Source: an uncultured Oscillospiraceae bacterium (GTDB lineage: Bacteria; Bacillota; Clostridia; Oscillospirales; Oscillospiraceae). From it: a stretch of 42,410 nt of DNA. How positions within the stretch are numbered: the first letter of the stretch is position 1; each line of letters opens with the position of its first letter. The stretch lies in assembly GCA_900752445.1 (NCBI GenBank), contig CAADVN010000050.1, forward strand, positions 1 to 42,410. The letters run 5' to 3'. Below are positions 29,286 to 42,410 of this stretch, piece after piece. The notes below the pieces were generated by a model. That model made no database searches. It had not been told where the DNA came from and saw nothing but the letters and a program-made list of their open reading frames with translations. The position numbers and the translations under genes are program-made.

Positions 29286-29426
29286 GGTTTCCTCCATTTC
29301 CGACAGCCAGCCCCGCTATTCCGTAAGGAAATTATATCACACGGGGCGGCTGTCTGTATAGCTGGTAAATGTGAATTTTGCTTCTTTATCGCCCGTCATT
29401 ATGACGATTTTTTGGAATTAGGCTTG

Positions 29427-29630: not shown

Positions 29631-29636
29631 CTCCTT

Positions 29637-30476
29637 TCACTTCAACAGTTCTTTTAGTCCATTGAGCTTGGCTTGTGCCGTTTCCTTTCGGAAGTTCTCG
29701 CCTGTAAAGAGGATAGGCAGACACATTTCAAGCACTCGGTCATAGATACGGGCGTGGGCGGTGTCCTGTGGATTTTGCAGTTCCGTAAGGCTTAGATTGG
29801 TGGTGACAATCAGCGGCTTTCGGCTGCGGTATCGGCTGTCAATTACATTGTAGACCTGTTCCAAACCGTACTCTGTGCCACGCTCCATACCAAAATCATC
29901 AAGTATCAGCAGAGGGAAACGGCAAAGACGCTCGATATATTCGTTTCGCCCCTCAAAGCTGGCAGTTAAATCATTCAGTATCGCAGAAAAGTTTGTCATG
30001 CGGACGGAGATTTCCTGTTCCATAAGGGCATTGGCAATGCACCCGGCAAAATAGCTTTTTCCTGTGCCTACCTTGCCCCACAAGAGCAGACCATAGTTGT
30101 TTTCTCTCATCTGCTCCCAATGCTCCACATATAAATGTGCCTTGCTCATCTGCGGGCATTTGCCGTTGTCATGTGCAAAAGTCCATTCCTGCATGGTGAG
30201 GTCGGTAAAGCCCCGGCGTTTCAGTTCCATAACGGTGTCAAGGTGTCGTCTGCGTTCCTCGGCGGATTCACATTCCAAACGCTTCTCCCGTTGGCAGTCA
30301 CATTCTGTCGGGTGCTTGTCATGCCCCAACCATGCGGCGGTTTCTTTGGGAAAGTAGGCTTCTTTCGCCGTGCGGCACTTGCCGCAGTAAAGCAGACCGT
30401 CCTCGCCCGTGTAGTCCTCCGGCTCTGCGGTAGTAGTCATCATATTCAAAACGGTATCGGTAAAAAGTTCAGTCAT
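29637..30476 (-). CDS. DnaC/IstB-like AAA+ ATPase (replication helper)
   Basis: Walker A LLLWGKVGTGKS and Walker B LLILDDFGMER, with a Cys-rich N-terminal region. Its start overlaps the end of the replisome-organizer gene. Confidence 0.85.
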   Translation of the reverse strand: MTELFTDTVLNMMTTTAEPEDYTGEDGLLYCGKCRTAKEAYFPKETAAWLGHDKHPTECDCQREKRLECESAEERRRHLDTVMELKRRGFTDLTMQEWTFAHDNGKCPQMSKAHLYVEHWEQMRENNYGLLLWGKVGTGKSYFAGCIANALMEQEISVRMTNFSAILNDLTASFEGRNEYIERLCRFPLLILDDFGMERGTEYGLEQVYNVIDSRYRSRKPLIVTTNLSLTELQNPQDTAHARIYDRVLEMCLPILFTGENFRKETAQAKLNGLKELLK

Positions 30477-31216
30477 AAACTCTCGCCCTCCTTAAAGGTG
30501 TAATCGGGTATGCCTTTTTTCGGCGGTTTCTTGGCTTCGTCCTCCTGCGCCCACTTGTATATCGTGGCTGCATGGCTACGGTATTTCGTTCCTTTGGACG
30601 CTATATGAGTAGATAAGCGGTCAATATAATACTCCCATTTGTCGGGCAGTTCCGCTTTCAGCTCGTCCAGTTCCGTATCGGAAAGAAAAACATTGTTGTA
30701 TCTGCCATAGCTGCGGGCGGGGGCTTGTCCCGTTTCTAACTCTCTCTCTTTTTCTATCTCTATATCTATCTCTTTCTTTATCTCTATCTCTGGTGGACGA
30801 ATGTCGGACAAATGTCCGCCGTTTGTCCGGGGTGGTGGCAAAGCCTTGTTTGCAAGCCTTGCTGCCCGTTTTCGTTCCGCTTCGGTAGAGGATTGCCCTA
30901 TCATCAGTTCAATATCGGTCATGTAGAGCAAGCCGCCGTGTAGCTGCTCCACAAGCCCCAACTGCTGAAAAATCCCTAACGCCCGTTCCACCGTGCCTAC
31001 CTGCTGACGGGTAAGAGTGGCGATCATCTGTGCTGTGTAAGGGATATTCTCGTCAAGCTGCAACTTGCCGCCGTTTTTCAGCGATTTTAAGTACAGCTTC
31101 AAGAGAATGTTGGAATAGAGAATACCGTCCGGCATACTCTCCAACAGCACGATAGCGTCATCATCAAAATAGCTTTCTTTCAGTTTGAGGTAGTAATATT
31201 TGCGGTTATCTGCCAT
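30473..31216 (-). CDS. Phage-type replisome organizer / DnaD-like protein
   Basis: The N-terminus MADNRKYYYLKLKESYFDDDAIVLLESMPDGILYSNILLKLYL matches the phage replisome organizer N-terminal domain pattern. Confidence 0.8.
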   Translation of the reverse strand: MADNRKYYYLKLKESYFDDDAIVLLESMPDGILYSNILLKLYLKSLKNGGKLQLDENIPYTAQMIATLTRQQVGTVERALGIFQQLGLVEQLHGGLLYMTDIELMIGQSSTEAERKRAARLANKALPPPRTNGGHLSDIRPPEIEIKKEIDIEIEKERELETGQAPARSYGRYNNVFLSDTELDELKAELPDKWEYYIDRLSTHIASKGTKYRSHAATIYKWAQEDEAKKPPKKGIPDYTFKEGESL

Positions 31217-31400
31217 AGGCGGTGTCCTCCTTTGGTTTCCAACGCTTGGAGTAATACCGGTGGCAGAGGATAATCACGGTTCGGAAACTCTGCTTGCAAT
31301 CGTGGGTGCAGCCCCGGCAAAGGTCGTTATAGGTAATTCGGTTTCGGTGGTTGAGGAAAAAGCTCCATTCAAGCCGCCGTTTGTTGCTCATGCGTGGCAT
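31206..31400 (-). CDS. Small Cys-rich hypothetical protein
   Basis: MPRMSNKRRLEWSFFLNHRNRITYNDLCRGCTHDCKQSF...LCHRYY. AAAGGAG lies 7 nt upstream of the ATG at 31400, and the gene overlaps the next start. Function unknown. Confidence 0.5.
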   Translation of the reverse strand: MPRMSNKRRLEWSFFLNHRNRITYNDLCRGCTHDCKQSFRTVIILCHRYYSKRWKPKEDTAYGR

Positions 31401-31585
31401 TGGTACGCTCCTTTCTGCCGTTTCCGTGGGTATCACGGATAGGGCGGGAAAACTGTATCTTCTCGGTATCATTTTCGGGGATTTTTTGCCCTGTACGCCC
31501 TGTTTTGAGGTCGGGGAGTATTGCGGATAGGGGTAAGGGCATATCCCTGTTTTTGTTTGGTTTCGGTATCATTTCGGGGCGGTTT

Positions 31586-33211
31586 TTAACGCTCCTGTTC
31601 ATGCTTTTTCTGTCGGCTCGGCTCGCCGTGGTGCATTTGGGAAAGATTGCTTTTCATGGTCTGCAACTCCCGGACACGCTCTTTATTTGCCCGGTACTCG
31701 TTGTAAAGGGCGTTCTTCTCGGCGGTAAGCTGCTCGATTTCAGCCTGCAACGATTTATAGGTGGGCAGCTTGGTAATGCCTTTTTGCCGAAAATATCTTA
31801 CGGCTGCGTCTGCTATGATAAAGTCGCTTTCATGCTTTTCCCGGTAGGCTTTGCGTGCCTTATCGGTTTTCTGCTTTTTCAATCCGTCACGCACATCTCT
31901 TGTCTTGGCATAGGCAAGCACCTGTTTCTGCAAGTCCTTTTTCTCACGGATAGCCGTTTCAATGGGCTTCAGCTTGGCGGTGCTGCTGTGTAAATCCGCA
32001 TTGGCAGACACAAGGGCTGCGTCCAGTTCATCCGGGGTAAAGCCGTATTGCTCCATAGCGGCAACGGTAGCCGCCATCTGTTTGAGATTGTGGACAGCCG
32101 CCCAACGGTCATAGCCGATACCTTTTCCCTCGGCTCGCTTCGCCGCACGGTCAACCATTCTCTGAATGTTGCCTGTCGGGGCGATTTTCTGCGTTTTTCC
32201 TCGCTCTGTGCGGTTTGTTTCAGCGGTATGGTATTCGGGTATGGGTACGGTCTTTTCGGCGGCTCTGTGGGCGTTCTGCTCCAAAAGAGTAAGAACAGCA
32301 GCACGGTCAAAATCATCTCCCAGTTTTCGGGCGGTAATGGGTTTCGTTCTGTCCGGGGTAAGGTAGGACAATCGCCCTCGGCTCTCTTTGACGGTCACGC
32401 CCTGTTGCAGAAGTAAAGCGGAAAACTCGTCAAAGGTGGTCGCTTCGCTCATGGCATTCCGTATGGTCTGCCGCAACTTCGCCTTGTCGGTTTCAAACTT
32501 GGTCTGCTTTACAGGCTTCCCCTCGGCTGCAAGGGCGGCATTTTCCTTGTCAAGTTTGGCTTGTCCTTTTTTATGCGCCCAATACTCACGCTCGGTAATG
32601 CGGTTTTTGCTGCCATGCAATAGGTCAATCTGATAGAGATTTTCCCGGTGGCACATCTCCATGACCTCGGCTTTGAAGTATTCCATAGCAGCGTCCGTAC
32701 AGCGGTGCTTGCACCCGGCACGGGTATCTGCCGGTCTGTCCATGTAGGGCAGTAAGGGTACTTCCTCGATACGCAGAGAATTGATAACAATGTGAACATG
32801 GATATTGCCGCTGTGGTTGTGTCCGTCCGGGTGGGTACAGACAATGGCTTGGTGTCCTGGGAAATGCTCGGCACAAAATTCCTCGCCCAATGCTTGCGCC
32901 CGGTCTACGGTCAAGCCGTTGTCCGCTGCGTCCCGTGGGTCAAAGGAAATGATATAGTGGTGGCTTTTCACATCTTCCCGTTTTTGGTTCTTGCCGTATC
33001 GGAGATTTGCCCGCATACAGGCAACGGCAAAATCTTCCTCGCCGCAGTTCAGCGTGGCTATTCGGTAATCCTCCCGGAGTATGAGCCGCCCGGCTTCGTC
33101 AAGGGTGGGCTTCATGGTAAACTCGTCATGCTCAAAGGTTAGATACTGCTCGGCTGCACCGTAGTCCGCATTTTTAGAGCTGATATGCTTGAATGTTGCC
33201 AACAGCGTCAC
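31586..33211 (-). CDS. Relaxase/mobilization nuclease (MobA/VirD2 family)
   Basis: N-terminal Tyr region (SKNADYGAAEQYL), the histidine triad HPDGHNHSGNIHVHIVINS, and a long coiled-coil C-terminus. The start is GTG at 33211 or TTG at 33202. Confidence 0.9.
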   Translation of the reverse strand: MTLLATFKHISSKNADYGAAEQYLTFEHDEFTMKPTLDEAGRLILREDYRIATLNCGEEDFAVACMRANLRYGKNQKREDVKSHHYIISFDPRDAADNGLTVDRAQALGEEFCAEHFPGHQAIVCTHPDGHNHSGNIHVHIVINSLRIEEVPLLPYMDRPADTRAGCKHRCTDAAMEYFKAEVMEMCHRENLYQIDLLHGSKNRITEREYWAHKKGQAKLDKENAALAAEGKPVKQTKFETDKAKLRQTIRNAMSEATTFDEFSALLLQQGVTVKESRGRLSYLTPDRTKPITARKLGDDFDRAAVLTLLEQNAHRAAEKTVPIPEYHTAETNRTERGKTQKIAPTGNIQRMVDRAAKRAEGKGIGYDRWAAVHNLKQMAATVAAMEQYGFTPDELDAALVSANADLHSSTAKLKPIETAIREKKDLQKQVLAYAKTRDVRDGLKKQKTDKARKAYREKHESDFIIADAAVRYFRQKGITKLPTYKSLQAEIEQLTAEKNALYNEYRANKERVRELQTMKSNLSQMHHGEPSRQKKHEQER

Positions 33212-33581
33212 CTACCTTTCGCAAGACTTCAAACTTCAAGGCGGCAAGGTCGGAAATGGCGGCTCGCACTTCAACGGACAGCGTATTGTAGGGCGTTCCG
33301 TATTCGTTGAGGGCACGGGCGATCTGATTAAGGTTGCCGCCGATTTTTCCGTATTCGGCTATCAACTTTCCAACAGCGGACAGCAGTTCATCATTGACCG
33401 GGGAAACGGTAACAATGGGGCGAATGGTCGCCCTTGTAATGGCTTGTCGGATAAACTCGGCTTGGCTCATGTCATAATTCTTTAGCCGTTCCGTGAAGTC
33501 GGCATATTCTTCTTCGGTCATGCGTGTCTTGACTACATGGCTTCGGTGGGGCGTATTGTATCGCTTTCCTATGGGTATCAA
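33174..33581 (-). CDS. mobC: MobC-type relaxosome accessory protein
   Basis: RMTEEEYADFTERL...SQAEFIRQAI and GKIGGNLNQIARALN match the MobC family. The start codon is uncertain because the TTG at 33581 abuts the RBS. Confidence 0.85.
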   Translation of the reverse strand: MIPIGKRYNTPHRSHVVKTRMTEEEYADFTERLKNYDMSQAEFIRQAITRATIRPIVTVSPVNDELLSAVGKLIAEYGKIGGNLNQIARALNEYGTPYNTLSVEVRAAISDLAALKFEVLRKVGDAVGNIQAYQL

Positions 33582-33867
33582 CTCCTTTCACTTACCGCCG
33601 TTTTGTGGGCGATTTTTTAAGTATTTTTTGGTGGGATTTTCAAGCGGCACAAGCCGCATAGCAGGGTTTGGGGAAGGCACTCCCCAACAAGATTCCGATG
33701 GGGCAGAATGAGCGAACGGCGAATTATGGCACCTCGGTAGAATCTTGCTCTGACAACTCACGCTCTGCTCCTGCCGTAAAACTGCGTATTTCTCCCTCTG
33801 CTGCCTACAACGACAGGAAAGGCATTTTGCCAAAGAATGTGGATAATTTTTTTGAAAAAATGGGCGT

Positions 33868-33894
33868 GAAAAAACGGCTTGCCATGCAAACCGT
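33868..33894 (-). terminator. Minus-strand hairpin with T-run in the non-coding stretch upstream of mobC
   Basis: The minus strand reads ACGGTTTGC-ATG-GCAAGCCGT followed by TTTTTTCAC. Confidence 0.4.
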
Positions 33895-33981
33895 TCAAAA
33901 AACATATACTTGATTTATGAGAAATCAACCTGAGATCAGGGAGGGCAGGCACAGCTTGTGCTTGCCCTCCTTGTCTGCCGA

Positions 33982-34061
33982 AAAGCGAAACAAGCTGCGG
34001 CTGTCAATGGCGCGTAAGCGTTTATCTCGACCATTGACGGGTGCAGCCTGTTTTGCTATCT
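33982..34061 (+). repeat. Direct repeat copy A (left of the cargo block)
   Basis: It aligns without gaps to 37700-37779. By my manual count, 57 of 80 positions are identical. Perfect blocks are CTGTCAATGGCG (34001-34012) and GCCTGTTTTGCTATCT (34046-34061). It contains the stem GTCAATGG / CCATTGAC. Confidence 0.7.
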
Positions 34062-34340
34062 TTCGTGATGAATTTATAGAAGACGATGCCCTCATTTTTC
34101 TCTGCGGCACAATATCGGTAGCCGCCACCAATATTGTCTAAAGACAGGAGCAAGGAGTTTTCATATGGGCAATTCGCACCGTTCCCCTTTACCATTTTCA
34201 AAGTGCCTCTCACAGCTGCCCGTTCATAGAAAATTCACAAACAGATTACTGCCGCCATATTGAAAAAGATGGTCATTATATGGTAGACTTATTATGCGGA
34301 TAGAATACCTATCTGACAAACTATGATTGGAGGTAACGCC

Positions 34341-34445
34341 ATGTATCGTCCCAATGATGCCCGGTTCGGTTTTGCGTGTTGGTGGTATTGGTGCGGCTCC
34401 CGATTATGGAGAGGTCGTATCAAAATCGTTTCTGTTGGCGCATAG
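34341..34445 (+). CDS. Candidate 34-aa Trp/Cys-rich small ORF
   Basis: GGAGG lies 7 nt upstream of the ATG. The translation is MYRPNDARFGFACWWYWCGSRLWRGRIKIVSVGA*. The stop is embedded in a hairpin with a T-run. There is no homology evidence. Confidence 0.3.
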   Translation: MYRPNDARFGFACWWYWCGSRLWRGRIKIVSVGA

Positions 34446-34483
34446 GCCGGACTGGTGATTAGTCGGCTTGTGCGCCTTTTTCT
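34437..34483 (+). terminator. Compound hairpin with T-run (terminator, or alternatively an oriT-like site)
   Basis: Outer stem GGCGCA / TGCGCC and inner stem GCCGGACT / AGTCGGC, followed by TTTTT (34477-34481). Confidence 0.5.
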
Positions 34484-34831
34484 TGCACAATAGGATGGTT
34501 GTTGTTTATCCTTAAAAGAATTGTAGAATTTCTACGACCCACAACGAAGTATTCGTACTTATTAACTGAAAGAGACTGCACCGGGTTATACATCTCTGCC
34601 GGAAGTGGTACAGGAAATTCATCATACCGATACCGAAGGTGGAATGAGCATAATTGTGTTCAATACTCGGTATGGGTTTATGCGCTGGGCTGCTTATTTC
34701 GCCCTCTGCTTTTGGAGGTTAAGATTGAAATTCAACAGGTATGTTGCATAGTACTTATCGTTTACAATATGATTTAAGACTATGCGCAGTTGTTAGATGC
34801 TACGAATATCTATTGCAAAGGAGTGATTATT

Positions 34832-35434
34832 TTGAAACCGAAAAGACTGTTGGCTGTATTGCTAACACTAATTTTAACCTGTTCATTTGTAACTTCTGCA
34901 TCAGCAGCTTCTTGTGGTGAATATGTTGATTGGACATGGAAAAATGGCACCTCATCGTTATCTGTGCAGATGTTCCCGTCTGCATACGATTTTTATGATA
35001 ATATTTATGCCGTTTACCAGTCTTGGAATGACATATCCTCAGCGGTTTCCATTGATGGATTTACATACTACGCAGATGGAACTAACCAAAATAAGGATAT
35101 TCAAATTGTTGGTGCTGCACTTACGGGAACAACTTTAGCGAACACAAGTATATATAGCAAAAACATTCTAGGTGTTTATACCCAGCAAGGTTTTTGGTCT
35201 TATACAGGAAAAGTTAGTAAAGCTGTTATCACCATTGACACATCAGGTAGATTTGGTGGACAGACAGACACATGGGAAAGAAAAACAATAATCCATGAAT
35301 TGGGACACGCACTGGCGTTAGATCATCCGTCCTGTACTAACCGAGCTATTATGCACCAAACCAGTTCTTCTTATGTTTCAAGTTCAATGCAATCACACGA
35401 TAGAGATTGTCTGATTGAGAAATGGGGTGAATAA
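34832..35434 (+). CDS. Secreted metzincin-like zinc metalloprotease (matrixin/M10-like)
   Basis: AGGAG precedes the TTG start at 34832. Signal peptide KPKRLLAVLLTLILTCSFVTSASA. Zinc motif HELGHALALDH (HExxHxxGxxH with G replaced by A) and a Met-turn candidate AIMH. Confidence 0.8.
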   Translation: MKPKRLLAVLLTLILTCSFVTSASAASCGEYVDWTWKNGTSSLSVQMFPSAYDFYDNIYAVYQSWNDISSAVSIDGFTYYADGTNQNKDIQIVGAALTGTTLANTSIYSKNILGVYTQQGFWSYTGKVSKAVITIDTSGRFGGQTDTWERKTIIHELGHALALDHPSCTNRAIMHQTSSSYVSSSMQSHDRDCLIEKWGE

Positions 35435-35436
35435 GT

Positions 35437-36057
35437 ATGACTAAAAGAACAAAAAGCATTCCGGTTTTGCTTGGTACTCTATTCCTGTTGATTCTTGTTG
35501 TTGCTGCTTCTTTAACTTCATTTTTGGGAAGCAAGACGCATTACAATATTCTTGCAACCGACAGATTGCAATTAGCACCTACTTATGCTGACTTGCAAAA
35601 TGTAAGTGATATTGTTGTTAAAGCGACAGTTATTCCCGGAAAAGAAAACAAGTTAATTACAGCAGACGATGGCACAGTTGTCTTTGGCTATACCATTACG
35701 CAGCTTAATGTCACAGAAGTATTCAAAGGAAATATCAATGAGGACTATCCCATTAACATTACCGAAGAATACTACACTCTTTCAGGAAATGGGAATGAGG
35801 TTTACACCCAAGGAAATTATATGCCCGCACAAGAAAGTGGCGAATATATTTTCTTCTTAAAAGCATACGACAGCACCAGCCCCTATGCCGGAATGTATTT
35901 TCCTGTTGATTTGGAGTATGGTAAGTATTCTGTTGATCTGGCTGAAACCTTTACTACACCAGCAAATGCTTCAGCAGCAGAATATGAGGTCATTGCCCTT
36001 GATGAAAAATATGTTGAGTTTGCCACAAGAGTAATTGAAGATTATTTACAAAACTAA
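35437..36057 (+). CDS. Hypothetical membrane-anchored extracytoplasmic protein
   Basis: 206 aa, starting 3 nt after the protease stop. N-terminal TM segment IPVLLGTLFLLILVVAASLTSFL. No family recognised. Confidence 0.65.
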   Translation: MTKRTKSIPVLLGTLFLLILVVAASLTSFLGSKTHYNILATDRLQLAPTYADLQNVSDIVVKATVIPGKENKLITADDGTVVFGYTITQLNVTEVFKGNINEDYPINITEEYYTLSGNGNEVYTQGNYMPAQESGEYIFFLKAYDSTSPYAGMYFPVDLEYGKYSVDLAETFTTPANASAAEYEVIALDEKYVEFATRVIEDYLQN

Positions 36058-36072
36058 GAAAGGAAATTCAAA

Positions 36073-36540
36073 ATGAAAAAGAGAATTTTTGCATTAGCAG
36101 TAGCAGTCATGATGTTGGCTTCTTTTGCTACAACCGCTTCTGCTGCCGAAACGCAGAATCCATACGAACTGCCCTATGATGTAGATAGCGGAGAAATGTT
36201 TGAATGTAGCGAATCCCTTGCCGTGGGAGATATACGAACCAGAGCTATTTTAGGAACAGGCACCCTTTACCATTCCGACCCTCTCATCGGTTATCCAAAA
36301 GCATACGCCTATACAGAGGCCTACGACACTTCATATAAAGTTCGTGCAAAATGCGATGTCAACAGTAACGGTGAGGGTGTCGATACAACAGGTTGGAAAG
36401 AGCTTAAAAACACCAAAGCGTGTAACTCCGGCACAATTCAAGCAACCACGGCTCGTTGTATTTTCGATGGCTTCCACGAAATTCAGACAACTTCCACTTC
36501 CAGCATGGGATCTGCTCAAACTACGGCATCCTATAATTGA
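36073..36540 (+). CDS. Hypothetical small secreted protein with 4 Cys
   Basis: 155 aa with AAGGAAA upstream. Signal peptide MKKRIFALAVAVMMLASFATTASA. No family recognised. Confidence 0.65.
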   Translation: MKKRIFALAVAVMMLASFATTASAAETQNPYELPYDVDSGEMFECSESLAVGDIRTRAILGTGTLYHSDPLIGYPKAYAYTEAYDTSYKVRAKCDVNSNGEGVDTTGWKELKNTKACNSGTIQATTARCIFDGFHEIQTTSTSSMGSAQTTASYN

Positions 36541-36549
36541 TTAAACCAC

Positions 36550-36600
36550 GGGGCATAACAATAATCTGCAAATGTGTGGGGAATTGTTATGCCCCACTTT
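36550..36600 (+). terminator. Hairpin after the three-gene cargo operon
   Basis: Perfect 13-bp stem GGGGCATAACAAT / ATTGTTATGCCCC (36550-36562 and 36583-36595) followed by ACTTTAT. The loop is long (20 nt) and the T-run is weak. Confidence 0.55.
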
Positions 36601-36620
36601 ATAGGGAGAGGTATATGTAA

Positions 36621-37565
36621 GTGAAACTAAAAAGATTCTTTTGCGCTTTGCTGATTATGACAATATGCGTATTATTTGCTTCTTGTGATTATTCCGACAA
36701 TGATAAACACTTGGATTTCGCAGATGAATATAGAGAATATGGAAATATGCTTGTTTTAGGCGTTGTCAACGATACAGATTTGACCGAGGACGGAGTTGTA
36801 TATCTTGATTCCATTACAGATAACTTAAACATACAATTTGCAAACTTGACCGAATACGATTCGGAGTACATATTAAAACTGTTTTTGGATTACGAAGAAA
36901 TTGAGTATTTTATTGATGATGAAATCAAAAACGGATATGTTTTTCAAGCAAAATCCGATGAATCGTTGATTATTCCTGTGAAGCTCAATTCATCAATAGA
37001 CTTCAATAATTCTCATATACTCACTGTCGCGGTCTTGACCGCACCAAACAAACACGCAAAAAAAAGTGATTTAATGAGTAATTCCTATGGAATGGTTCTT
37101 AGCTACGAACTTGCTCCGCGTGATGGCACGCGAAGTATCTCAACAAATAAAATATGTAGTGATCCTACAAAATATTTGGAACTAAACTATCAAGGGTTGA
37201 TGTTAAATCTTGATTTTGATGCTGCAAACAATGCTACAACACAATTTCCACCACAGAATATATTTGCAAAGGCTGGGGAAACTATAACATTGGCATACCG
37301 TGCTGGAAACTATGAAAATGCAAGTGAGCTGATGGTCATTGTCCTTATAGATTGGAAACAAAGCCAAATAAATGATGTTAATTCTCTCTATATTAGGAAT
37401 AAGCCCGGATACATAGGTTATGGTGAATTGAACATTACCACTCCACTTCAAGCTGGTGAATACGAAGTGACGGCCTTTGTAGTAGACTCTCCGTTTAGTT
37501 TAAGAGATTTCAATACTTTCCATACTCATGATACAGCATATCGCTTTACTTTAACAGTGCAATAA
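36621..37565 (+). CDS. Hypothetical lipoprotein
   Basis: GTG start after GGGAGAGG. Lipobox VLFASCDYS. 314 aa, Asn/Asp/Ile-rich, no family recognised. Confidence 0.65.
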   Translation: MKLKRFFCALLIMTICVLFASCDYSDNDKHLDFADEYREYGNMLVLGVVNDTDLTEDGVVYLDSITDNLNIQFANLTEYDSEYILKLFLDYEEIEYFIDDEIKNGYVFQAKSDESLIIPVKLNSSIDFNNSHILTVAVLTAPNKHAKKSDLMSNSYGMVLSYELAPRDGTRSISTNKICSDPTKYLELNYQGLMLNLDFDAANNATTQFPPQNIFAKAGETITLAYRAGNYENASELMVIVLIDWKQSQINDVNSLYIRNKPGYIGYGELNITTPLQAGEYEVTAFVVDSPFSLRDFNTFHTHDTAYRFTLTVQ

Positions 37566-37699
37566 AATATCTATAATGAACTACCCGTACCGTTGGCAAC
37601 GGCATAACCGCTAACTTAATACATCAATTATCGTAAATTCAGATAAACAAATGATACTGGGCGGTTAAGCACTCTTGGGCTTGTTCGCCTTGTTGTCAT

Positions 37700-37779
37700 A
37701 AAGCAAAATGGGCGGCAACTGTCAATGGCGGGCGTAGCCCGTTCATGACCGTTGACTGCTACTGCCTGTTTTGCTATCT
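37700..37779 (+). repeat. Direct repeat copy B (right of the cargo block, about 80 nt from the element end)
   Basis: Aligns to 33982-34061. It has the same outer stem (GTCAATGG / CCGTTGAC, one pair becoming G-U) and a different but still self-complementary inner loop (CGGGC-GTA-GCCCG). Confidence 0.7.
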
Positions 37780-37859
37780 CCCCTTTGGCTGTTCGGAATA
37801 GCGGCGGGGCTGCTGTCCTCGTCTGTGTTTGTGGTCTGCTTCTTTATTGCCCTTGCGCG

Positions 37860-38003
37860 TTCGGCCACGAGCTGAACCCCGTCGTGCGCGGCAACGTTGC
37901 GGCAAAGATGGGCTTCGACTGCACATACCCGGTGCCCAAACCGCCCGAGTACACGCGCGTGAGCTTTATGGACGTAGACCCCGGCAAATACGATATACGC
38001 TGA
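37860..38003 (+). pseudogene. ubiD: UbiD-family decarboxylase, 3' remnant (47 codons)
   Basis: FGHELNPVVRGNVAAKMGFDCTYPVPKPPEYTRVSFMDVDPGKYDIR*. The G..L.P....KMG.D.T pattern is the UbiD C-terminal region. It is in phase with the break at 27582. Confidence 0.8.
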
Positions 38004-38039
38004 AAAAGGCCGCGAGCACCAGAGGTGCCCGCGGCTTTT
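38004..38039. terminator. Bidirectional terminator between the ubiD 3' end and the convergent 288-codon ORF
   Basis: AAAAA-GGCCGCGAGCAC-CAGAG-GTGCCCGCGGC-TTTTG, with A and T runs on both sides. Confidence 0.7.
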
Positions 38040-38066
38040 GCCATTGTCTCACGGCTCGCACTCAGG

Positions 38067-38933
38067 TCACAGCACGTATTCCGCCGCGTTTATGACCTTG
38101 GTGCCCGACATGGCGGCGCCTATGCCGAAGAGGTCCATGCCCTTGCCGCCTATTTTCCCGACGTCCTTGCTGACCATGCCTGCCGCGTCCTCCTGCTCCT
38201 CGCTGCACTCTACGACGCCGCAGCTCTCTATGTGCAGGCGAGCCTCTATGAGCTCCGGCGGGATATCGGCGGCGAGCTTAACGATACCGCAATCGCTGAT
38301 CTCCACGCCCTCAGCCTGCTGCTCCAGCATCCGCCTCGTGACCTTCACGATGGGCTTATCCTCAAGTATCGCCCCCTCGGGCTTTACCGTCTTGACCTCG
38401 CCCGATATCCCGGACAGCAGTTCCAGGAGCCTTTCCCTGTGCTGCTGCGGCACGCGCACGTCGCCTCGGACGTTCAGGTATTCCAGCTCGTCCAGCGCGC
38501 CGCCGTCTTCCGGCACGCGCACGTCGCCTATGACATAGAGCTTCCTGCCATGGCGGCGCAGGGCGCCCTTGTCGAGCGCGACGTCGTCCTGCACCACGGC
38601 GGTGCCGTCCGGGACGACGGTGAGCTCCGCCCGCTCATCTATGAGGTCTGCCAGCGCCGCCACCTTCGACTCGGCGACGATGGCCTCCCTCGCGCTGAAC
38701 TTGGCGCCCTTGCTTTTGAGCGCCTCTGCGTCCAGCCCGGCGTCTACCATGATGAGGCGCCTCTCGGCCCAGTACAGCGCGCTTTTGGCACGCAGAGCGA
38801 ACAGCCTGTCGATGACGGCGTTGCGCTTGAGGACTATCGCCCCGTCCGGGTAGCAAGCAATGTCCGTGTCCGGACACTCACGAAACTCAAATACTCCCGG
38901 CCGCTGGGCCGGGAGTATTTTTCGGCGGCGCAT
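38067..38933 (-). CDS. Hypothetical protein with an internal 21-aa duplication (GDVRVP motif)
   Basis: Its composition looks protein-like, unlike the antisense frame. The first ~15 codons overlap a strong hairpin, so the true start may be the ATG at 38750 (MVDAGLD..., with GAGAGG 9 nt upstream). No family recognised. Confidence 0.5.
   Translation of the reverse strand: MRRRKILPAQRPGVFEFRECPDTDIACYPDGAIVLKRNAVIDRLFALRAKSALYWAERRLIMVDAGLDAEALKSKGAKFSAREAIVAESKVAALADLIDERAELTVVPDGTAVVQDDVALDKGALRRHGRKLYVIGDVRVPEDGGALDELEYLNVRGDVRVPQQHRERLLELLSGISGEVKTVKPEGAILEDKPIVKVTRRMLEQQAEGVEISDCGIVKLAADIPPELIEARLHIESCGVVECSEEQEDAAGMVSKDVGKIGGKGMDLFGIGAAMSGTKVINAAEYVL
38889..38922. terminator. Perfect 14-bp-stem hairpin downstream of the rep gene and iterons
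   Basis: AAATACTCCCGGCC-GCTG-GGCCGGGAGTATTT. TTTTTC follows on the plus strand and TTTGAGTTT follows on the minus strand. Confidence 0.6.
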
Positions 38934-38953
38934 ACTTGCGTATGCTTGGTTTT

Positions 38954-39036
38954 CCGTGACAGCCGTGACGACCGTGACGATGTTTTTAAAACAGCGCCGC
39001 TCTTTTCTTAGCCGTCACAGCCGTCGCGGTCGTCAC
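38954..39036. repeat. Iteron array: 3 direct plus 3 inverted nonamers around an AT-rich spacer (candidate replication origin)
   Basis: CCGTGAC occurs at 38954, 38963 and 38972 (9-nt period). The spacer is GATGTTTTTAAAACAGCGCCGCTCTTTTCTTAG. CCGTCAC, CCGTCGC and TCGTCAC follow at 39012, 39021 and 39030 (9-nt period, inverted sense). The last unit overlaps the rep stop codon. Confidence 0.6.
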
Positions 39037-40193
39037 GCCTTTGGGTCAGATTTCGTCAGCGTGATCGTTCTTCCTGAGTGTGTGCGGGTGTTTTCGTAGC
39101 GCACTTTGAAGTCGCTCAGCAGCTTCCCGGCGCGGACATTGAGCCGCATCGCCAGGGCGTTCGGTTTCATGTCAATGCCCAGTTCATCTCGCAGCTCCGT
39201 CGCGCTGCCTTCCCATGTCGGGCTCTCCTCCGTCACGAGCGCCGCCACCTTCTCGAGCATCGGGTCTGGCGGCTCGCGGTACGGCTCCTTGTCCGCGTGG
39301 TCAAAGCACCAAAGCAGCCGCTCCTCGTCGCGCACAAGGTGGATGCGCTGGTCGGGTTGGTCGCGGCCGGAGACGCTGAGCGTGGCCGCGTTATCCGTGC
39401 GGTTCTCCTTGCTGAGCACGAACGCGCCGTCGGCACAGCCGTAGATGCCCGTTGTGCCGGAGATTCTGTCAAACTCGTCGTTCGCCGCAGACTTTCGCGT
39501 GTGGTGAACGATGAGCATGCACAGCCCGAACTTGTCCGCGAGCTGCTTGAGCTGGCCGATGATCTGGTAGTCGTCCCGGTAGCTGTACGCCTCGCCGCTC
39601 AGCTCGCGCACCTTTTGCAGCGTGTCGATGATGATAAGACGTGTGTCCGGGTGCTCGCGCACGAACTTCTCAAGCTGCGCGTCGAGGCCGTTTCCGAGCT
39701 GCTTCGCGCTTATGGCGAAGTGTAATTTATCTGCGCCCTCCACGCCAAACATACGGTACATTCGCCTTTGCAGCCTCTCGTAGCCGTCCTCAAGCGCGAG
39801 GTAGAGCACTGTGCCCTGGTGGACTTCGCAGTCCCAGAGCTTTTGTCCGGTGGCGACGTGGTAGGCGAGCTGCGCCATGAGGAAGGACTTTCCCACCTTC
39901 GGCGCACCTGCGAATATGTAAGTTCCGTTTTGGAGTAATCCTTCGATGACTGGCGGTTTGCTCTCGTAGACTGTGTCGTACAACTCGGCCATCGTCACCG
40001 TCGGCAGGAACGCCGGGTCGTTCATACGGCGCAATTTTCTGTACAATTCCTGCAGATTTTCGTTGCTTTCGGCACCGGGATTTGATATATTGTTGTTGCA
40101 AACATTTGAAAGCGGCTGTCCCGCATCTGCGCCAACAGATGACAAAGGGGCAGCGTTTTCTTTTATCACCTGCTCAGCAAGCAAAGGCATCAC
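39033..40193 (-). CDS. AAA_25/RepA-like RecA-fold ATPase (element replication initiator/helicase candidate)
   Basis: Walker A FAGAPKVGKS, VLYLALED, Walker B RLIIIDTL and MLIVHHTRK, with a C-terminal extension. Confidence 0.85.
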   Translation of the reverse strand: MMPLLAEQVIKENAAPLSSVGADAGQPLSNVCNNNISNPGAESNENLQELYRKLRRMNDPAFLPTVTMAELYDTVYESKPPVIEGLLQNGTYIFAGAPKVGKSFLMAQLAYHVATGQKLWDCEVHQGTVLYLALEDGYERLQRRMYRMFGVEGADKLHFAISAKQLGNGLDAQLEKFVREHPDTRLIIIDTLQKVRELSGEAYSYRDDYQIIGQLKQLADKFGLCMLIVHHTRKSAANDEFDRISGTTGIYGCADGAFVLSKENRTDNAATLSVSGRDQPDQRIHLVRDEERLLWCFDHADKEPYREPPDPMLEKVAALVTEESPTWEGSATELRDELGIDMKPNALAMRLNVRAGKLLSDFKVRYENTRTHSGRTITLTKSDPKA

Positions 40194-40383
40194 CTCCCGT
40201 GTGCCTGTCTATCCAGGCTATCAGCTTGTCCTTCGGCACCAGCTTCCGCTTCCCGATCTGCAGCGTAGGGAAATCCGCGGAATTCAGCAGCTGATACGCC
40301 CCGGCTCTGGATATTCCCAGCGCTTCAGCCAGCATCCCGGCGTTCAGGATATCGGGCAGACTCTCATAGGCTTCTCTTCTCAT
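40174..40383 (-). CDS. Small excisionase/MerR-type HTH (HTH_17) protein
   Basis: LPDILNAGMLAEALGISRAGAYQLLNSADFPTLQIGKRKLVPKDKLIAWI. The best RBS spacing is for the ATG at 40383; the track start is 40413. Confidence 0.75.
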   Translation of the reverse strand: MRREAYESLPDILNAGMLAEALGISRAGAYQLLNSADFPTLQIGKRKLVPKDKLIAWIDRHTGGDAFAC

Positions 40384-40424
40384 TGACATTTCCCCTTTAA
40401 AAAATATTGCCAAGATACATTTTT

Positions 40425-40467
40425 CTTGACAACGATATTATATGGTGATAATATCATATCTGTCAAG
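40425..40467. promoter_or_regulatory. 43-bp palindrome carrying two overlapping divergent promoters (candidate operator/switch)
   Basis: - Plus strand: TTGACA (40426-40431), 17 nt, TAATAT (40449-40454).
- Minus strand: TTGACA (40466-40461), 18 nt, TATAAT (40442-40437).
- Nested inverted repeats: CTTGACA/TGTCAAG and GATATTAT/ATAATATC. Confidence 0.65.
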
Positions 40468-40525
40468 AATAACCGTTCGACATTTGATATAATTCATTAT
40501 TTCATACCAGATTGGAGGTATGCCG

Positions 40526-41326
40526 ATGAAAGTGCCAATTTTTCCGGTCACGCCGAAAGAGGCGGAGGAATACGGCATAGAGAACCGCACGGAGGCGAAC
40601 CGCAACTGTCCATTCGCCAAAAGGCTGGCGCAGCTTCGGCAGGAAAAAGGGCTGACGCAGCAGAAACTTGCGGATATACTCAAGTGCTCCAAGTCCACGA
40701 TAAGTCTTTACGAGACAGGCGACACGGTGCCGGATGCGAAGAACATAGTGGGCCTGTGCGATATTTTCGGCGTGAGTTGTGACTATCTGCTCTGTCAGAC
40801 CGACTACCGCAGGCCGGAGAACGAGAGGCTTACAATTGAGGAAATGGGTTACTCGGAGAAGGCAGCGCAGGCTCTTCATAACCTGGATTTCATAAAACTG
40901 CTCCAACACAGCGGACATATAGAGCTGCCTTTCTCTCCAAAGGCGTCGTTCAATCTCATGTGTGAGGACAAACGTTTCAAAGAAATGATGCTCCTGGTAT
41001 GTGAAGCCTACCAGATGCGGATCGCAGATGCACGCTTTGACCCGAAAGTTGTAGAAAAGGCGAGCAATCTTGAGATAGGCGGCTGCAGAGCTATGCTGTT
41101 TGCGATTGGAGAAGGCAGCGCACCGGTCTCGGACCTTGCAGAGGTGTATTTGCAGCGTGCAAGCGAACTTTTCAAGGACATAGTGCGCGACTTTCCGACG
41201 GAAGACCCGGAAACAGGGGAAGAGTATCAGATGATGATACGGGGCAATATCTACAATCCCGTGCTGAAGAGCAAGTTCAACGACCGGATGTGGGAAAACA
41301 TCGACGAGGAAGAACAGGACGAGTGA
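40526..41326 (+). CDS. XRE-family repressor with a long C-terminal domain
   Basis: HTH FAKRLAQLRQEKGLTQQKLADILKCSKSTISLYETG followed by a ~170-aa C-terminal domain of unknown family. GGAGG lies 7 nt upstream of the ATG at 40526; the track start at 40520 is too close to the RBS. Confidence 0.85.
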   Translation: MKVPIFPVTPKEAEEYGIENRTEANRNCPFAKRLAQLRQEKGLTQQKLADILKCSKSTISLYETGDTVPDAKNIVGLCDIFGVSCDYLLCQTDYRRPENERLTIEEMGYSEKAAQALHNLDFIKLLQHSGHIELPFSPKASFNLMCEDKRFKEMMLLVCEAYQMRIADARFDPKVVEKASNLEIGGCRAMLFAIGEGSAPVSDLAEVYLQRASELFKDIVRDFPTEDPETGEEYQMMIRGNIYNPVLKSKFNDRMWENIDEEEQDE

Positions 41327-41378
41327 GCAAGCGGCTCGGCCTTTTCTTATAATAAAAAAAGAATAAAGGAGGAGTTCT

Positions 41379-42410
41379 ATGCCGGGAAAACGCTCCAACG
41401 GTGAGGGCGCTCTGCGCAAGCGCAGCAGCGGTCTCTGGGAGTGTATGATTATGACGGGCTTTCAGCCCGACGGAAAGAGAAAATACAAGAGCTTCTATGC
41501 CAGAACACGAAAGGAAGTTTTGCAGAAAGTCAGGGACTACCGGGCTGCGGTCGAAGCGGGTCTCGACATGACGAAGAAGGAGCTGAAGTTCGGCGAGTGG
41601 GCTCAGTCGTGGTTTGAGGGGTACAAGGACCAGGTCTCGCCTACGACCTATGAGAGCTATGGCTACACGCTCAAGACCCTTAACAAGGCCTTTGGCTCAA
41701 AGCCGCTGAGGAGCATACGCGCCGCGGACGTCGAGGCCTTCCTGCGCGAGCTGACGAAGGACGGCACGCACCAATCACAGGCGTCAAAGTGCCGGGGCAT
41801 GATGTTCCAGATCATGCGCAAGGCTCAGGCGAACGACCTCATCCTCAAGAACCCGGTCGAGCTTGCAGACAAAACGCGGCACGCACCTCAGCAAAGCAAA
41901 AAGGACTCCTTCACAGCGGAAGAAGTCCGAAAGCTGTTCAAGTACCTGCCTCACGACAAGACGGGCGACAGCATAAGGCTGCTGCTCCTCACGGGTATGC
42001 GCTCTCAGGAGCTGCTTGCGCTGGAGGCCGGGCACATTGAGCCTGACGGCTCGTGCGTACATATCCGCCAGGCGGTGAAACAGGTCAAGGGCACGGTATT
42101 CATAGGCGGCACTAAGAGCGCCAGCAGTATCCGTGATGTGCCGATACCCGAAGCCTACCGCGGCATGGTCGCGAGTCTGCGCGAGTACTGCACGCCCTAC
42201 CTATGGACCGGCATAGGCGTGTACAAGCCCTGCAGCCCGACGCATTTCCGCGACAAATTCGCCGCCGCAATAAAGTCGGTCCCGGGCGTCAGGCCGCTCA
42301 CGCCGCACTCTTGCCGGCACACCTTCGTCAGCCAGCTGCAGGCCCAGGGCGTCCCCATGGAGACCATCCAGTCCCTCGCCGGACACGCCGAGATGGACAT
42401 GACCGAGCAC
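41379..42410 (+). CDS. Tyrosine site-specific integrase (partial, open at the window end)
   Basis: It is not in the ORF track because no stop is reached. AAAGGAGG lies upstream of the ATG at 41379. The frame is open for 344 codons: MPGKRSNGEGALRKRSSGLWE..., a SAM-like N-domain, then LLLLTGMRSQELLAL (Arg box) and LTPHSCRHTFVS (HxxR). Confidence 0.9.
   Translation, partial: MPGKRSNGEGALRKRSSGLWECMIMTGFQPDGKRKYKSFYARTRKEVLQKVRDYRAAVEAGLDMTKKELKFGEWAQSWFEGYKDQVSPTTYESYGYTLKTLNKAFGSKPLRSIRAADVEAFLRELTKDGTHQSQASKCRGMMFQIMRKAQANDLILKNPVELADKTRHAPQQSKKDSFTAEEVRKLFKYLPHDKTGDSIRLLLLTGMRSQELLALEAGHIEPDGSCVHIRQAVKQVKGTVFIGGTKSASSIRDVPIPEAYRGMVASLREYCTPYLWTGIGVYKPCSPTHFRDKFAAAIKSVPGVRPLTPHSCRHTFVSQLQAQGVPMETIQSLAGHAEMDMTEH

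What the first reader, a model, noticed from the sequence alone, without database searches (positions are those of the whole stretch)
38041..42410. Compact integrase-repressor-Rep-iteron element with phage-satellite (PICI-like) architecture
**What the sequence shows (reading right to left)**
- a tyrosine integrase and a 266-aa XRE repressor, co-oriented;
- a palindromic divergent promoter region;
- a 69-aa HTH_17/excisionase-like protein;
- an AAA_25 Rep-like ATPase whose stop codon lies in an iteron array;
- a strong terminator;
- one orphan ORF, ending at a bidirectional terminator shared with the chromosomal ubiD remnant.

**Interpretation**
- This mirrors the canonical SaPI/PICI layout of int and stl on one side, and str/xis, pri-rep and ori followed by accessory genes on the other.
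- No capsid, terminase or conjugation genes are visible in about 4.4 kb.
- Such elements are poorly described in high-GC gut Clostridia, and they often carry anti-phage or interference cargo.
Basis: partly seen in the sequence, partly recalled or inferred. Interest (0 to 1): 0.7.

Follow-up and report, generated by a model that had tools for sequence, protein, structure and literature searches.

The report
Stripped mobilizable-island backbone beside tRNA-Ala
The region holds the bare integration, control and replication core of a common gut-bacterial mobilizable island family whose complete members carry relaxases and anti-phage genes; this copy has lost its cargo and left attachment site, so it is an ordinary, probably immobile remnant and not a phage satellite.

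Summary
They are a tyrosine integrase, a 266-aa XRE repressor, overlapping divergent promoters, a 69-aa HTH_17 excisionase-like protein, and an AAA_25 helicase-type Rep whose stop codon lies in a 3+3 inverted iteron array.

The limits and the interpretation need correcting:
- The foreign DNA runs from 38853, not 38041, to about 170 bp past the window end. It stops at a terminator and tRNA-Ala(GGC), followed by core genes (sufBD and others). It is therefore small (3.73 kb) and not part of a prophage or ICE.
- The "orphan ORF" is the 3' two-thirds of a chromosomal 398-aa gene.
- The "ubiD remnant" comes from an unrelated 10.3-kb serine-recombinase IME.
- Relatives lacking the element show that 1.78 kb of chromosome is missing here.
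- Strains of the same species and a fuller relative carry a tRNA-half attL plus cargo that this copy lacks.

Relatives with the same backbone (Xis 100%, Int 93-95%, Rep 90-95% identical) carry MobA_MobL relaxases and restriction-modification, CBASS-like or BREX-like cargo, and no packaging genes. The family is therefore a set of integrative mobilizable defence islands. The window holds a relaxase-less, cargo-less, attL-less backbone.

A 25-nt motif marks the backbone/cargo border. It remains unexplained.

The parts
38067..38852 (-). NOT element. This is the 3' part (codons 136-398) of a chromosomal 398-aa gene that sits next to an ECF sigma factor gene in intact relatives. The listed ORF borrows 25 codons and an ATG from element DNA (38853-38933).
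   Evidence: 100% protein identity over 263 aa to L012 13573-14769. 99% DNA identity of 37855-38855 to element-free relatives. ECF sigma neighbour.
38853..38877 (+). First bases of the foreign DNA. A 25-nt motif GCAAGCAATGTCCGTGTCCGGACAC containing the palindrome GTGTCCGGACAC. It forms the border between backbone and variable DNA across the family. Its function is unknown.
   Evidence: Homology with element-free L012 ends at 38855/38856. The exact motif occurs in 37 metagenome loci with at least 9 unrelated left flanks.
38889..38920 (.). Perfect 14-bp stem-loop flanked by A-run and T-run. It is a two-way intrinsic terminator ending the xis-rep transcript. A second small hairpin lies at 38930-38945.
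   Evidence: Conserved with compensatory changes in relatives.
38954..39036 (.). Putative replication origin. Three direct 9-mers (CCGTGAC-type, 38954-38980), a 29-bp A+T-rich spacer, and three inverted 9-mers (39010-39036) that overlap the rep stop codon. Position 38965 is where extra genes ('slot 1') are inserted in relatives.
   Evidence: The same 3+3 architecture appears with different repeat sequence in Rep variants (GGTGACGAT in L004-L007 and L076-L078; TTGCGACGC in class-2 L044).
39033..40190 (-). Rep: a RepA/DnaB-like (AAA_25, RecA-fold) helicase with a C-terminal winged-helix-like domain. Putative initiator-helicase. No primase domain.
   Evidence: Pfam AAA_25 E 2e-31. PDB RSF1010 RepA E 1e-5. 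Foldseek DnaB/G40P. AF2 C-terminal residues 310-382 at pLDDT 80-92. dN/dS 0.07-0.14.
40174..40383 (-). 69-aa HTH_17/AlpA-like protein, putative excisionase (RDF). Its stop overlaps the rep start.
   Evidence: Pfam HTH_17 E 2e-7, Phage_AlpA weak. The exact protein occurs in 2413 blocks of the public collection.
40420..40472 (.). Overlapping back-to-back promoters within an inverted repeat (TTTTTCTTGACA ... TGTCAAGAATAA; inner palindrome GATATTAT-N6-ATAATATC). Putative XRE operator and switch.
   Evidence: Conserved in relatives with both XRE alleles.
40526..41326 (+). XRE-family repressor, 266 aa. N-terminal HTH plus an all-alpha C-terminal domain with no peptidase domain. Co-oriented with int.
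   Evidence: Pfam HTH_3 E 9e-14. Alleles share 115 identical N-terminal residues but are only 50-60% identical in the C-terminal domain. No structural match beyond the HTH.
41379..42410 (+). Tyrosine integrase, first 344 of 366 codons. It runs off the window. Beyond the window, in the identical contig L001, come the int stop, 3x TTCTGGTAC arm-type repeats, a terminator hairpin and tRNA-Ala(GGC) on the minus strand. Homology with element-free relatives resumes 174 bp past the window end.

Best explanation
Window 38853 to about 174 bp beyond its end (3.73 kb) is the conserved backbone of a widespread family of integrative mobilizable elements, or defence islands, of gut Oscillospiraceae-like Clostridia. 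These elements insert into the anticodon loop of tRNA-Ala(GGC), and in some hosts tRNA-Pro(GGG).

**How complete members most likely work (inferred)**
1. The XRE repressor sits on the palindromic overlapping promoters. It keeps xis-rep off while it and int are transcribed the other way.
2. An unknown signal, sensed by the variable C-terminal domain, relieves repression.
3. Xis and Int recombine attL (a displaced tRNA 3' half plus arm sites) with attR and release a circle.
4. The RepA/DnaB-like Rep binds the 3+3 inverted iterons just past its own gene through its C-terminal winged helix. It melts the A+T-rich spacer and lets the circle replicate.
5. A MobA_MobL relaxase with a DUF3847 partner, carried by some members just beyond the origin, hands the DNA to a co-resident conjugative element.
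6. Variable slots on either side of a terminator and a 25-nt motif carry anti-phage systems.

**This copy (shown)**
- It has an empty slot, no relaxase or oriT-like region, and no outer cargo.
- It has no attL.
- A deletion runs from the motif edge into a chromosomal gene. It removed 1.78 kb of host DNA and, by comparison with relatives, the element's left part.
- Its four genes are intact, but it most likely cannot excise. It is best seen as a locked remnant.
For: **Borders and size**
- Borders come from comparison with element-free relatives of the same species (99% flank identity).
- The right side is tRNA-Ala and core genes.

**Missing attL**
- Same-species contigs L011 and L013 carry a tRNA 3' half plus TTCTGGTAC repeats right after the 148-aa gene that is deleted here.
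- A relative (L034/L038; Rep 95%) runs tRNA half, arms, DUF6061, 8.4 kb of CBASS-like and type IIG RM cargo, motif, hairpin, iterons, rep.

**Relaxases in relatives**
- L077, L078 and L082 carry MobA_MobL (E 1e-79/1e-80) and DUF3847 directly after rep/ori.
- They share Int at 93-95%, Xis at 100% and Rep at 90-92% with the window.
- More distant Rep relatives (51%) also sit with int plus relaxases.

**Cargo in relatives**
- Type I, IIG, III-like and IV restriction systems, CBASS-like, BREX-like, PD-Lambda-3-like and PDC-S31-like genes.

**Mobility and selection**
- Element genes differ from those of L026/L021 by dS 0.13-0.30, while the adjoining sufBD/sufC/plsY differ by dS 1.1-1.2.
- dN/dS of the four element genes is 0-0.14.

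**Rep and origin pairing**
- The iteron architecture is kept while the iteron sequence changes with the Rep variant.

**Rep fold**
-.
Against: - Nothing shows excision, replication or transfer. All functional steps are inferred from homology and layout.
- Only 3 of 10 long-contig relatives carry a relaxase. The others may move differently or not at all.
- The left junction falls at exactly the same base (the start of the 25-nt motif) in at least 9 contexts, including another species with more than 12 kb of apparently chromosomal left flank and no tRNA half (L026/L059). A random deletion would not repeat this. The motif edge may therefore be a genuine recombination or end site, in which case this copy could be more 'complete' than I state.
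- The sequence is 100% identical in at least three assemblies with all genes intact. That fits a recent event but also a maintained function.
- The Rep AF2 model is poor overall (mean pLDDT 56).
Confidence: 0.68

Rival explanations
1. Phage satellite (PICI- or PICMI-like). A helper phage protein would bind the XRE C-terminal domain. The element would then excise, replicate from the iterons and be packaged in helper capsids, possibly as a concatemer, without encoding any packaging genes.
For: - The layout equals the PICI convention: int and repressor one way, xis, rep and ori the other, with two iteron sets flanking an A+T-rich region (PMC6092414).
- PICMIs show that a satellite can be about 6 kb with only int, alpA and a replication gene plus a defence hotspot (PMC10803314).
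- The XRE C-terminal domain is hypervariable while the DNA-binding part is identical, as expected for a sensor in an arms race.
- Cargo in relatives is anti-phage.
- Rep relatives occur in scaffolds deposited as 'UNVERIFIED Bacteriophage sp.' from human faeces.
Against: - No terS, capsid, portal, ppi/cpm-like or other hijacking gene was seen in this copy or in any relative examined.
- Close relatives carry MobA_MobL relaxases, and so do the 'Bacteriophage sp.' scaffolds.
- There are no matches in IMG/VR for the motif, the arm repeats or close Rep relatives.
- There is no primase.
- This copy lacks attL.
- SatelliteFinder's authors treat int + AlpA + replicase alone as ambiguous ('Type C', PMC10085698).
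Confidence: 0.1
2. A complete miniature element whose real left end is the 25-nt motif. The motif would be a cis site (oriT/nic, or a second recombination site) recognised by a helper or by Int. The 3.7-kb unit could then still move as a relaxase-less 'hitcher', and the missing host DNA would be a by-product of an end-joining or secondary-site event.
For: - The same first base of the motif joins at least 9 unrelated left flanks.
- The motif is identical in elements whose Int is only 24% and Rep 60% identical. That fits a site read by a shared trans-acting factor.
- An IS110-family element targets its edge.
- Different backbone variants sit against the same left flank in one host clade.
- Relaxase-less islands carrying only an oriT are reported to be frequent, with defence genes near the oriT (bioRxiv 10.64898/2026.01.13.699239).
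Against: - No relaxase-proximal position: in L077 the motif lies 1.6 kb beyond the relaxase gene, while the hairpin-rich candidate oriT is upstream of it.
- No match in PLSDB plasmids.
- No inverted or direct second copy at the right end of the window element.
- Conservative tyrosine recombination cannot by itself delete 1.78 kb of target.
- A canonical attL exists in the same species.
Confidence: 0.14
3. Lysogeny or replication module of a larger prophage or ICE that continues to the right of the window.
For: Only the a priori possibility that the window end cuts the integrase.
Against: The identical contig L001 continues with the int stop, tRNA-Ala, sufBD, sufC, plsY, der, a radical SAM gene, rpmF and yceD. 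Homology with element-free relatives resumes 174 bp past the window end.
Confidence: 0.01

Closest known systems
Integrative and mobilizable elements (IMEs) of Firmicutes with tyrosine integrase, RDF, replication gene and MOBQ-type (MobA_MobL) relaxase (review: Guedon et al. 2017, PMC5704250)
   Same: - Site-specific tyrosine integrase plus small HTH excisionase.
- Integration in a tRNA gene that is restored by the element.
- A plasmid-type replication protein for the excised form.
- MobA_MobL relaxase in close relatives and no mating-pore genes.
- Defence cargo.
- Frequent decay and accretion at the att site.
   Different: - This copy has no relaxase, no oriT-like region, no cargo and no attL.
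- The crossover is in the anticodon loop rather than at the 3' end.
- I found no published description of this particular family.
SaPI/PICI phage satellites (Fillol-Salom et al. 2018, PMC6092414)
   Same: - Gene order: int and repressor leftward; xis, rep and ori rightward.
- The origin lies immediately 3' of rep and is made of two iteron sets flanking an A+T-rich stretch.
- Accessory genes lie distal to ori.
   Different: - No primase.
- No terS, capsid-remodelling or interference genes anywhere in the family sampled.
- Relaxases are present in relatives.
- Size is 3.7 kb here, against about 15 kb.
- No evidence of phage induction or packaging.
PICMI minimalist satellites of Vibrionaceae (Barcia-Cruz et al. 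2024, PMC10803314)
   Same: A tiny integrative element with int, an AlpA/HTH_17 regulator, one replication gene and a variable defence hotspot.
   Different: - The PICMI markers are a DUF3987/DUF5906 primase and insertion next to fis.
- Here the replication gene is an AAA_25 helicase, an XRE repressor is present and the target is a tRNA.
- Hosts are Gram-positive anaerobes.
- Relaxases occur in relatives.
RSF1010 RepA hexameric helicase (PDB 1G8Y) and the DnaB/G40P SF4 helicases
   Same: A RecA-fold AAA_25 core, which is the best sequence and fold match.
   Different: - Rep here has an extra C-terminal winged-helix-like domain and cognate iterons next to its gene, suggesting it is also the initiator.
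- RSF1010 uses a separate RepC initiator and RepB primase (from my own knowledge).
ICEBs1-type regulatory module (int-immA-immR divergent from xis)
   Same: An XRE repressor co-oriented with int, divergent from xis and downstream functions. The ImmR HTH is among the best PDB hits (7T8I).
   Different: There is no ImmA-like protease gene, and the repressor has an unrelated 150-aa C-terminal domain.

Membership tests
PICI (phage-inducible chromosomal island) | int plus master repressor on one side; xis, (pri-)rep and ori on the other | tested here: met
   This order is also found in ICEs and IMEs, so it does not discriminate between them.
PICI (phage-inducible chromosomal island) | ori with two iteron sets flanking an A+T-rich region, next to rep | tested here: met
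   38954-38980 and 39010-39036 with a 29-bp spacer. The architecture is conserved in Rep variants.
PICI (phage-inducible chromosomal island) | Packaging or interference genes (terS, capsid morphogenesis/ppi/cpm) or a helper pac/cos site | tested here: not met
   No such genes in the window or in the cargo of relatives. pac/cos sites are not testable without a helper phage.
PICI (phage-inducible chromosomal island) | Primase homologue in the replication module | tested here: not met
   Rep matches only the helicase parts of PHROG primase-helicases. There is no Prim-Pol, Toprim or DUF3987 domain.
PICI (phage-inducible chromosomal island) | Induction by a helper phage and transfer in phage particles | not testable with these tools
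   Indirect evidence only: no hits in IMG/VR.
Integrative mobilizable element (IME) | Own site-specific integrase, with RDF for tyrosine integrases | tested here: met
   Int and HTH_17 protein, both under purifying selection.
Integrative mobilizable element (IME) | Flanked by attL and attR derived from the target gene | tested here: not met
   Not met for this copy. attR with an intact tRNA-Ala is present in L001, but no second tRNA half or repeat is found in 42 kb. It is met in relatives L034 and L013.
Integrative mobilizable element (IME) | Relaxase and/or oriT, but no mating-pore (T4SS) genes | tested here: not met
   No relaxase in this copy. MobA_MobL is present in the same-backbone relatives L077, L078 and L082. 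No T4SS genes were seen in any relative. oriT has not been identified.
PICMI | int + alpA + DUF3987/DUF5906 primase, integrated next to fis | tested here: not met
   int and an HTH_17 protein are present. There is no such primase and no fis. The target is tRNA-Ala.
Anticodon-loop-targeting tRNA integrases | The identity block between att sites ends in the anticodon loop, and the tRNA is restored by an element-borne 3' half | tested here: met
   L013/L011 share terminator plus tRNA 3' half up to ...GAATGCCAT and then diverge. The tRNA-Pro(GGG) sites have the same anticodon stem. The crossover point itself is inferred.

The most novel reading that the evidence does not exclude
The exactly conserved 25-nt motif at 38853-38877 may be a cis-acting site shared by otherwise divergent islands (Int 24% and Rep 60% identical). 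It could be an oriT/nic or a dedicated recombination site read by a common helper or host factor. Such a site would define where cargo is exchanged and where transferred DNA ends. On that reading the 3.7-kb int-XRE-xis-rep unit would be a functional minimal 'hitcher' whose left end is the motif, rather than a remnant.
Probability: 0.12. Interest if true: 0.6.

Novelty: new member of a known kind. Interest (0 to 1): 0.3.

Why it matters
- It corrects an attractive but wrong label. An int-repressor/xis-rep-iteron layout alone does not indicate a phage satellite, because relatives with the same backbone are relaxase-bearing IMEs.
- It documents an abundant, unnamed family of small tRNA-Ala/tRNA-Pro-integrating defence islands in gut Clostridia. 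The exact Xis protein occurs in more than 2400 blocks of the public collection, and Rep has more than 8000 related clusters. The family has two cargo slots.
- It gives a clean example of how such islands decay in place.
- The practical value is modest. The parts could serve as an integrase/att pair and a Rep/iteron replicon for genetically intractable Oscillospiraceae. The conserved motif is a testable candidate for the site that governs cargo turnover.

Tried and rejected
- **att repeat search.** I searched the whole window for the tRNA-Ala 3' end and for all shared k-mers of 10 nt or more between the right flank and the window. Only chance matches were found.
- **Circular contigs.** I tested for end overlaps in the 3-4 kb contigs and in the two faecal 'Bacteriophage sp.' scaffolds. 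None were found.
- **Vertical inheritance.** I considered vertical inheritance of the element with its flank. It is rejected because dS is 0.13-0.30 for element genes against 1.1-1.2 for flanking genes.
- **L026 flank.** I considered that the 420-aa gene left of the motif in L026 is the homologue of the truncated 398-aa gene. It is rejected because there is no similarity.
- **Motif as a promoter -10/+1 or terminal inverted repeat.** No consistent -35 element and no second copy at the right end.
- **Motif as a known RNA.** No Rfam hit.
- **Exact-protein look-ups for Rep.** These failed because public gene calls use a different start codon.
- **Viral collections.** IMG/VR scans for the motif, arm repeats and Rep were all negative.
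- **Plasmids.** The PLSDB search with the left-end DNA was negative.
- **XRE fold search.** It matched only the HTH. Apparent Stl hits have rmsd of about 16 Å and are not meaningful.
- **Rep AF2 model.** It is of low quality outside the C-terminal domain.


Full report
**1. What is in the sequence**

The gene-level observation holds.
- On the + strand, an XRE/HTH_3 protein (40526-41326, 266 aa) is followed by a tyrosine integrase that starts at 41379 and runs off the window.
- On the - strand, a 69-aa HTH_17/AlpA-like protein (40174-40383) overlaps the start of an AAA_25 protein (39033-40190).
- Between the two operons, a promoter scan finds a 12/12 sigma-70 match pointing left (40466-40437) and a 10/12 match pointing right (40426-40454). 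Their -10 boxes overlap inside an inverted repeat.
- The rep stop codon lies in the second of two sets of three 9-mers (38954-38980 and, inverted, 39010-39036). A 29-bp A+T-rich stretch separates the sets.
- A perfect 14-bp hairpin follows at 38889-38920.

**2. What lies to the right**

The exact XRE protein is on 21 public contigs. L001 is 100% identical to window 37807-42410 and continues beyond it.
- The integrase is 366 aa.
- It is followed by three TTCTGGTAC repeats, a terminator hairpin and tRNA-Ala(GGC) on the opposite strand.
- Next come sufBD, sufC, plsY, der, a radical-SAM gene, rpmF and yceD.
- The element therefore does not continue into a prophage or ICE.

**3. Where the element really starts**

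I looked up a chromosomal gene upstream (the CoA-transferase at 24218-25777). This returned contigs of the same species at about 99% identity. Comparing them with the window shows three things.
- **ubiD is split by a separate element.** ubiD is intact (446 aa) in the relatives. In the window it is split by a 10.3-kb low-GC insertion (27584-37854). That insertion encodes a large serine recombinase, an IstB-like ATPase, a phage replisome organiser, a MobA/VirD2 relaxase and a NikA/MobC protein. Its att junctions are clean. This explains the "ubiD remnant".
- **The "orphan ORF" is chromosomal.** Window 37855-38855 is chromosomal. Residues 26-288 of the "orphan ORF" equal residues 136-398 of a 398-aa protein at 100% identity. 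In relatives that gene is followed by an ECF sigma factor gene and a 148-aa gene.
- **The right border lies just past the window.** Homology resumes 174 bp beyond the window end, at the terminator in front of tRNA-Ala.

The foreign DNA is therefore 38853/38856 to window end + 173, which is 3.73 kb. It replaces 1.78 kb of chromosome: the 5' third of the 398-aa gene, the sigma factor gene and the 148-aa gene.

**4. The att sites**

- No copy of the tRNA 3' end, and no other repeat of the right flank, exists in the 42-kb window.
- Same-species contigs L011, L013 and L014 carry, right after the 148-aa gene, the terminator plus the tRNA-Ala 3' half up to the anticodon loop (...GAATGCCAT). They then diverge into DNA with GTACCAGAA/TTCTGGTAC repeats and a DUF6061 gene. 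This is a canonical attL of an element with the same arm-type sites.
- L034/L038 show a fuller structure: tRNA half, arm repeats, DUF6061, 8.4 kb of low-GC cargo, the sequence equivalent to window 38853 onward, then hairpin, iterons and rep (95% identical).
- The window copy therefore lacks attL and everything between attL and 38853. Because host DNA is also missing, the configuration cannot arise from conservative integration alone. A deletion is required.

**5. The family**

A genome scan with Rep, a metagenome scan with the first 25 nt of the element, and look-ups of an XRE allele and of the exact Xis gave more than 60 related loci. They share one backbone. Read from the tRNA, it runs: arm repeats, int, XRE, divergent promoters, xis, rep, iterons, [slot 1], hairpin terminator, 25-nt motif, [slot 2].
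- **Slot 1** opens at window coordinate 38965. It is empty in the window.
- **Relaxases.** In L077, L078 and L082, slot 1 starts with hairpin-rich DNA, a DUF3847 gene and a MobA_MobL relaxase at E 1e-79/1e-80. These loci share Int at 93-95%, Xis at 100% and Rep at 90-92% with the window.
- **Other cargo** includes:
  - a type IV methyl-directed restriction enzyme with PD-Lambda-3-like and PDC-S31-like genes (L022, L076, L085);
  - type I RM plus Fic (L068, L079-L083);
  - a type III-like RM (L084);
  - a BREX/PAPS-reductase-like set (L078, L082);
  - a CBASS-like operon (cyclase, 2TM effector, TGT, QueC) with type IIG RM (L034).
- **No packaging genes.** No capsid, terminase or other packaging gene was seen anywhere.
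- **Second target.** Some members sit at tRNA-Pro(GGG), whose anticodon stem is identical to that of tRNA-Ala(GGC).
- **Distant relatives.** More distant Rep relatives (51%) occur in two small faecal scaffolds deposited as unverified "Bacteriophage sp.". They also sit with an integrase and relaxases (Mob_Pre + NikA; MobA_MobL).
- **Class 2.** A second class with a 24%-identical integrase and 60%-identical Rep has the same layout. Its own 3+3 iterons (TTGCGACGC) lie right after rep, followed by a hairpin, the same 25-nt motif and a helicase-PLD nuclease cargo.

**6. Is the family mobile and functional?**

- Between the window and L026/L021, the four backbone genes differ by dS 0.13-0.30. The adjacent sufBD, sufC and plsY differ by dS 1.1-1.2. 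The element is therefore far younger than the host split and has moved between species.
- dN/dS is 0-0.14 for int, XRE, xis and rep.
- The iteron architecture is conserved while the repeat sequence changes with the Rep variant. This is what a cognate initiator/origin pair predicts.
- Rep's best solved relative is the RSF1010 RepA helicase.
- A modest AF2 model matches DnaB/G40P-type helicases. It shows a confidently predicted C-terminal winged-helix-like domain at residues 310-382.
- XRE alleles share an identical 115-residue N-terminus and the same operator region. They are only 50-60% identical in the all-alpha C-terminal domain, which has no structural match.

**7. Interpretation**

[quoted passage not shown] - The discriminating features point to IMEs: relaxases in same-backbone relatives, absence of any hijacking gene, and absence from viral collections.
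- SatelliteFinder's authors note that int + AlpA + replicase alone is ambiguous (PMC10085698).
- PICMIs (PMC10803314) show that a minimalist satellite is conceivable, so I keep that rival at about 0.1.
- For this particular copy, the missing attL, relaxase, oriT-like region and cargo make a locked remnant the most likely status. All four genes are nevertheless intact, and the sequence is identical in at least three assemblies.

**8. What remains unexplained**

The first 25 nt of the foreign DNA are GCAAGCAATGTCCGTGTCCGGACAC.
- They occur unchanged in 37 further metagenome loci. At least nine unrelated sequences abut exactly the first base.
- One such flank is more than 12 kb of apparently chromosomal DNA in another host clade. 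That flank meets several different backbone variants.
- The motif is also present, in the other orientation, in class-2 elements. A degenerate inverted second copy lies 6.9 kb away in L031/L062.
- An IS110-family element sits exactly at its edge in L056.
- It matches no Rfam family and no PLSDB plasmid.

It may be an oriT/nic, a secondary recombination site, an operator in front of cargo operons, or only the edge of a block used for homologous cargo swapping. If it is a true end or recombination site, the window copy could be more complete than I conclude. I give that rival about 0.14.

**9. Verdict**

- It is a new member of a known kind, an IME or defence-island backbone, here in stripped form. 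Interest is moderate to low.

Noticed in passing
window 27584-37854: A separate 10.3-kb low-GC IME is inserted in ubiD. It carries a large serine recombinase (27672-29297), an IstB-like ATPase, Phage_rep_org_N, a MobA/VirD2 relaxase (31586-33211), NikA/MobC and four secreted-looking cargo proteins (34790-37565, one M10 peptidase-like). The attB in intact ubiD is CCCCGGCGCCTTCGGCCACGAG.
   Followed up: partly
window 33960-34065 and 37680-37790: Two copies, about 70% alike, of a roughly 100-nt hairpin-forming sequence (…CTGTCAATGGCG…CCATTGAC…GCCTGTTTTGCTATC) lie inside the serine-recombinase IME. One is internal and one is at its right end. Their function is unknown.
   Followed up: no
window 38853-38877; L031-L067, L021, L022, L026, L068, L076-L085: A 25-nt motif with the palindrome GTGTCCGGACAC marks the backbone/cargo border in two divergent classes of island. 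At least 9 unrelated flanks begin at exactly its first base. It is unexplained.
   Followed up: partly
L056 about 5017-6683 (1.67 kb left of the motif): An IS110-family insertion sequence (414-aa DEDD_Tnp_IS110 + Transposase_20) is inserted exactly at the left edge of the motif, with GCA on both sides. This suggests the motif is a preferred IS110 target.
   Followed up: partly
L068, L069, L079-L081, L083: The same backbone is integrated at tRNA-Pro(GGG) instead of tRNA-Ala(GGC). The two tRNAs share the anticodon stem (CTTGA/TCAAG) but not the loop. This is a possible natural example of an att-site switch.
   Followed up: partly
window 40526-41326 versus L021/L038/P0138-P0210: The XRE repressor alleles are mosaics. 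The first 115 residues and the operator are identical. The C-terminal domain of about 150 residues is 50-60% identical, with variable acidic tails.
   Followed up: partly
L011 and L015, terminator in front of tRNA-Ala (about 16146-16190 in L011): The loop of the terminator hairpin is flipped (GTGA versus TCAC), and L015 continues into the reverse complement of the element's right arm. This is either an assembly fold-back on the palindrome or a real inversion.
   Followed up: no
L031, L044, L062 (class-2 relatives): Cargo of the second class includes a 1310-1354-aa SF1 helicase-PLD nuclease with zinc ribbon, a 1263-aa YobI-like NTPase and a SLOG (YpsA-like) protein. These are probable defence genes not assigned to a named system here.
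   Followed up: no
L086 (MT838829.1) and L087 (MT836902.1): Small scaffolds deposited as 'UNVERIFIED Bacteriophage sp.' from human faeces encode int, a Rep relative (51%) and relaxases (Mob_Pre+NikA; MobA_MobL). They look like IMEs or plasmids rather than phages.
   Followed up: partly
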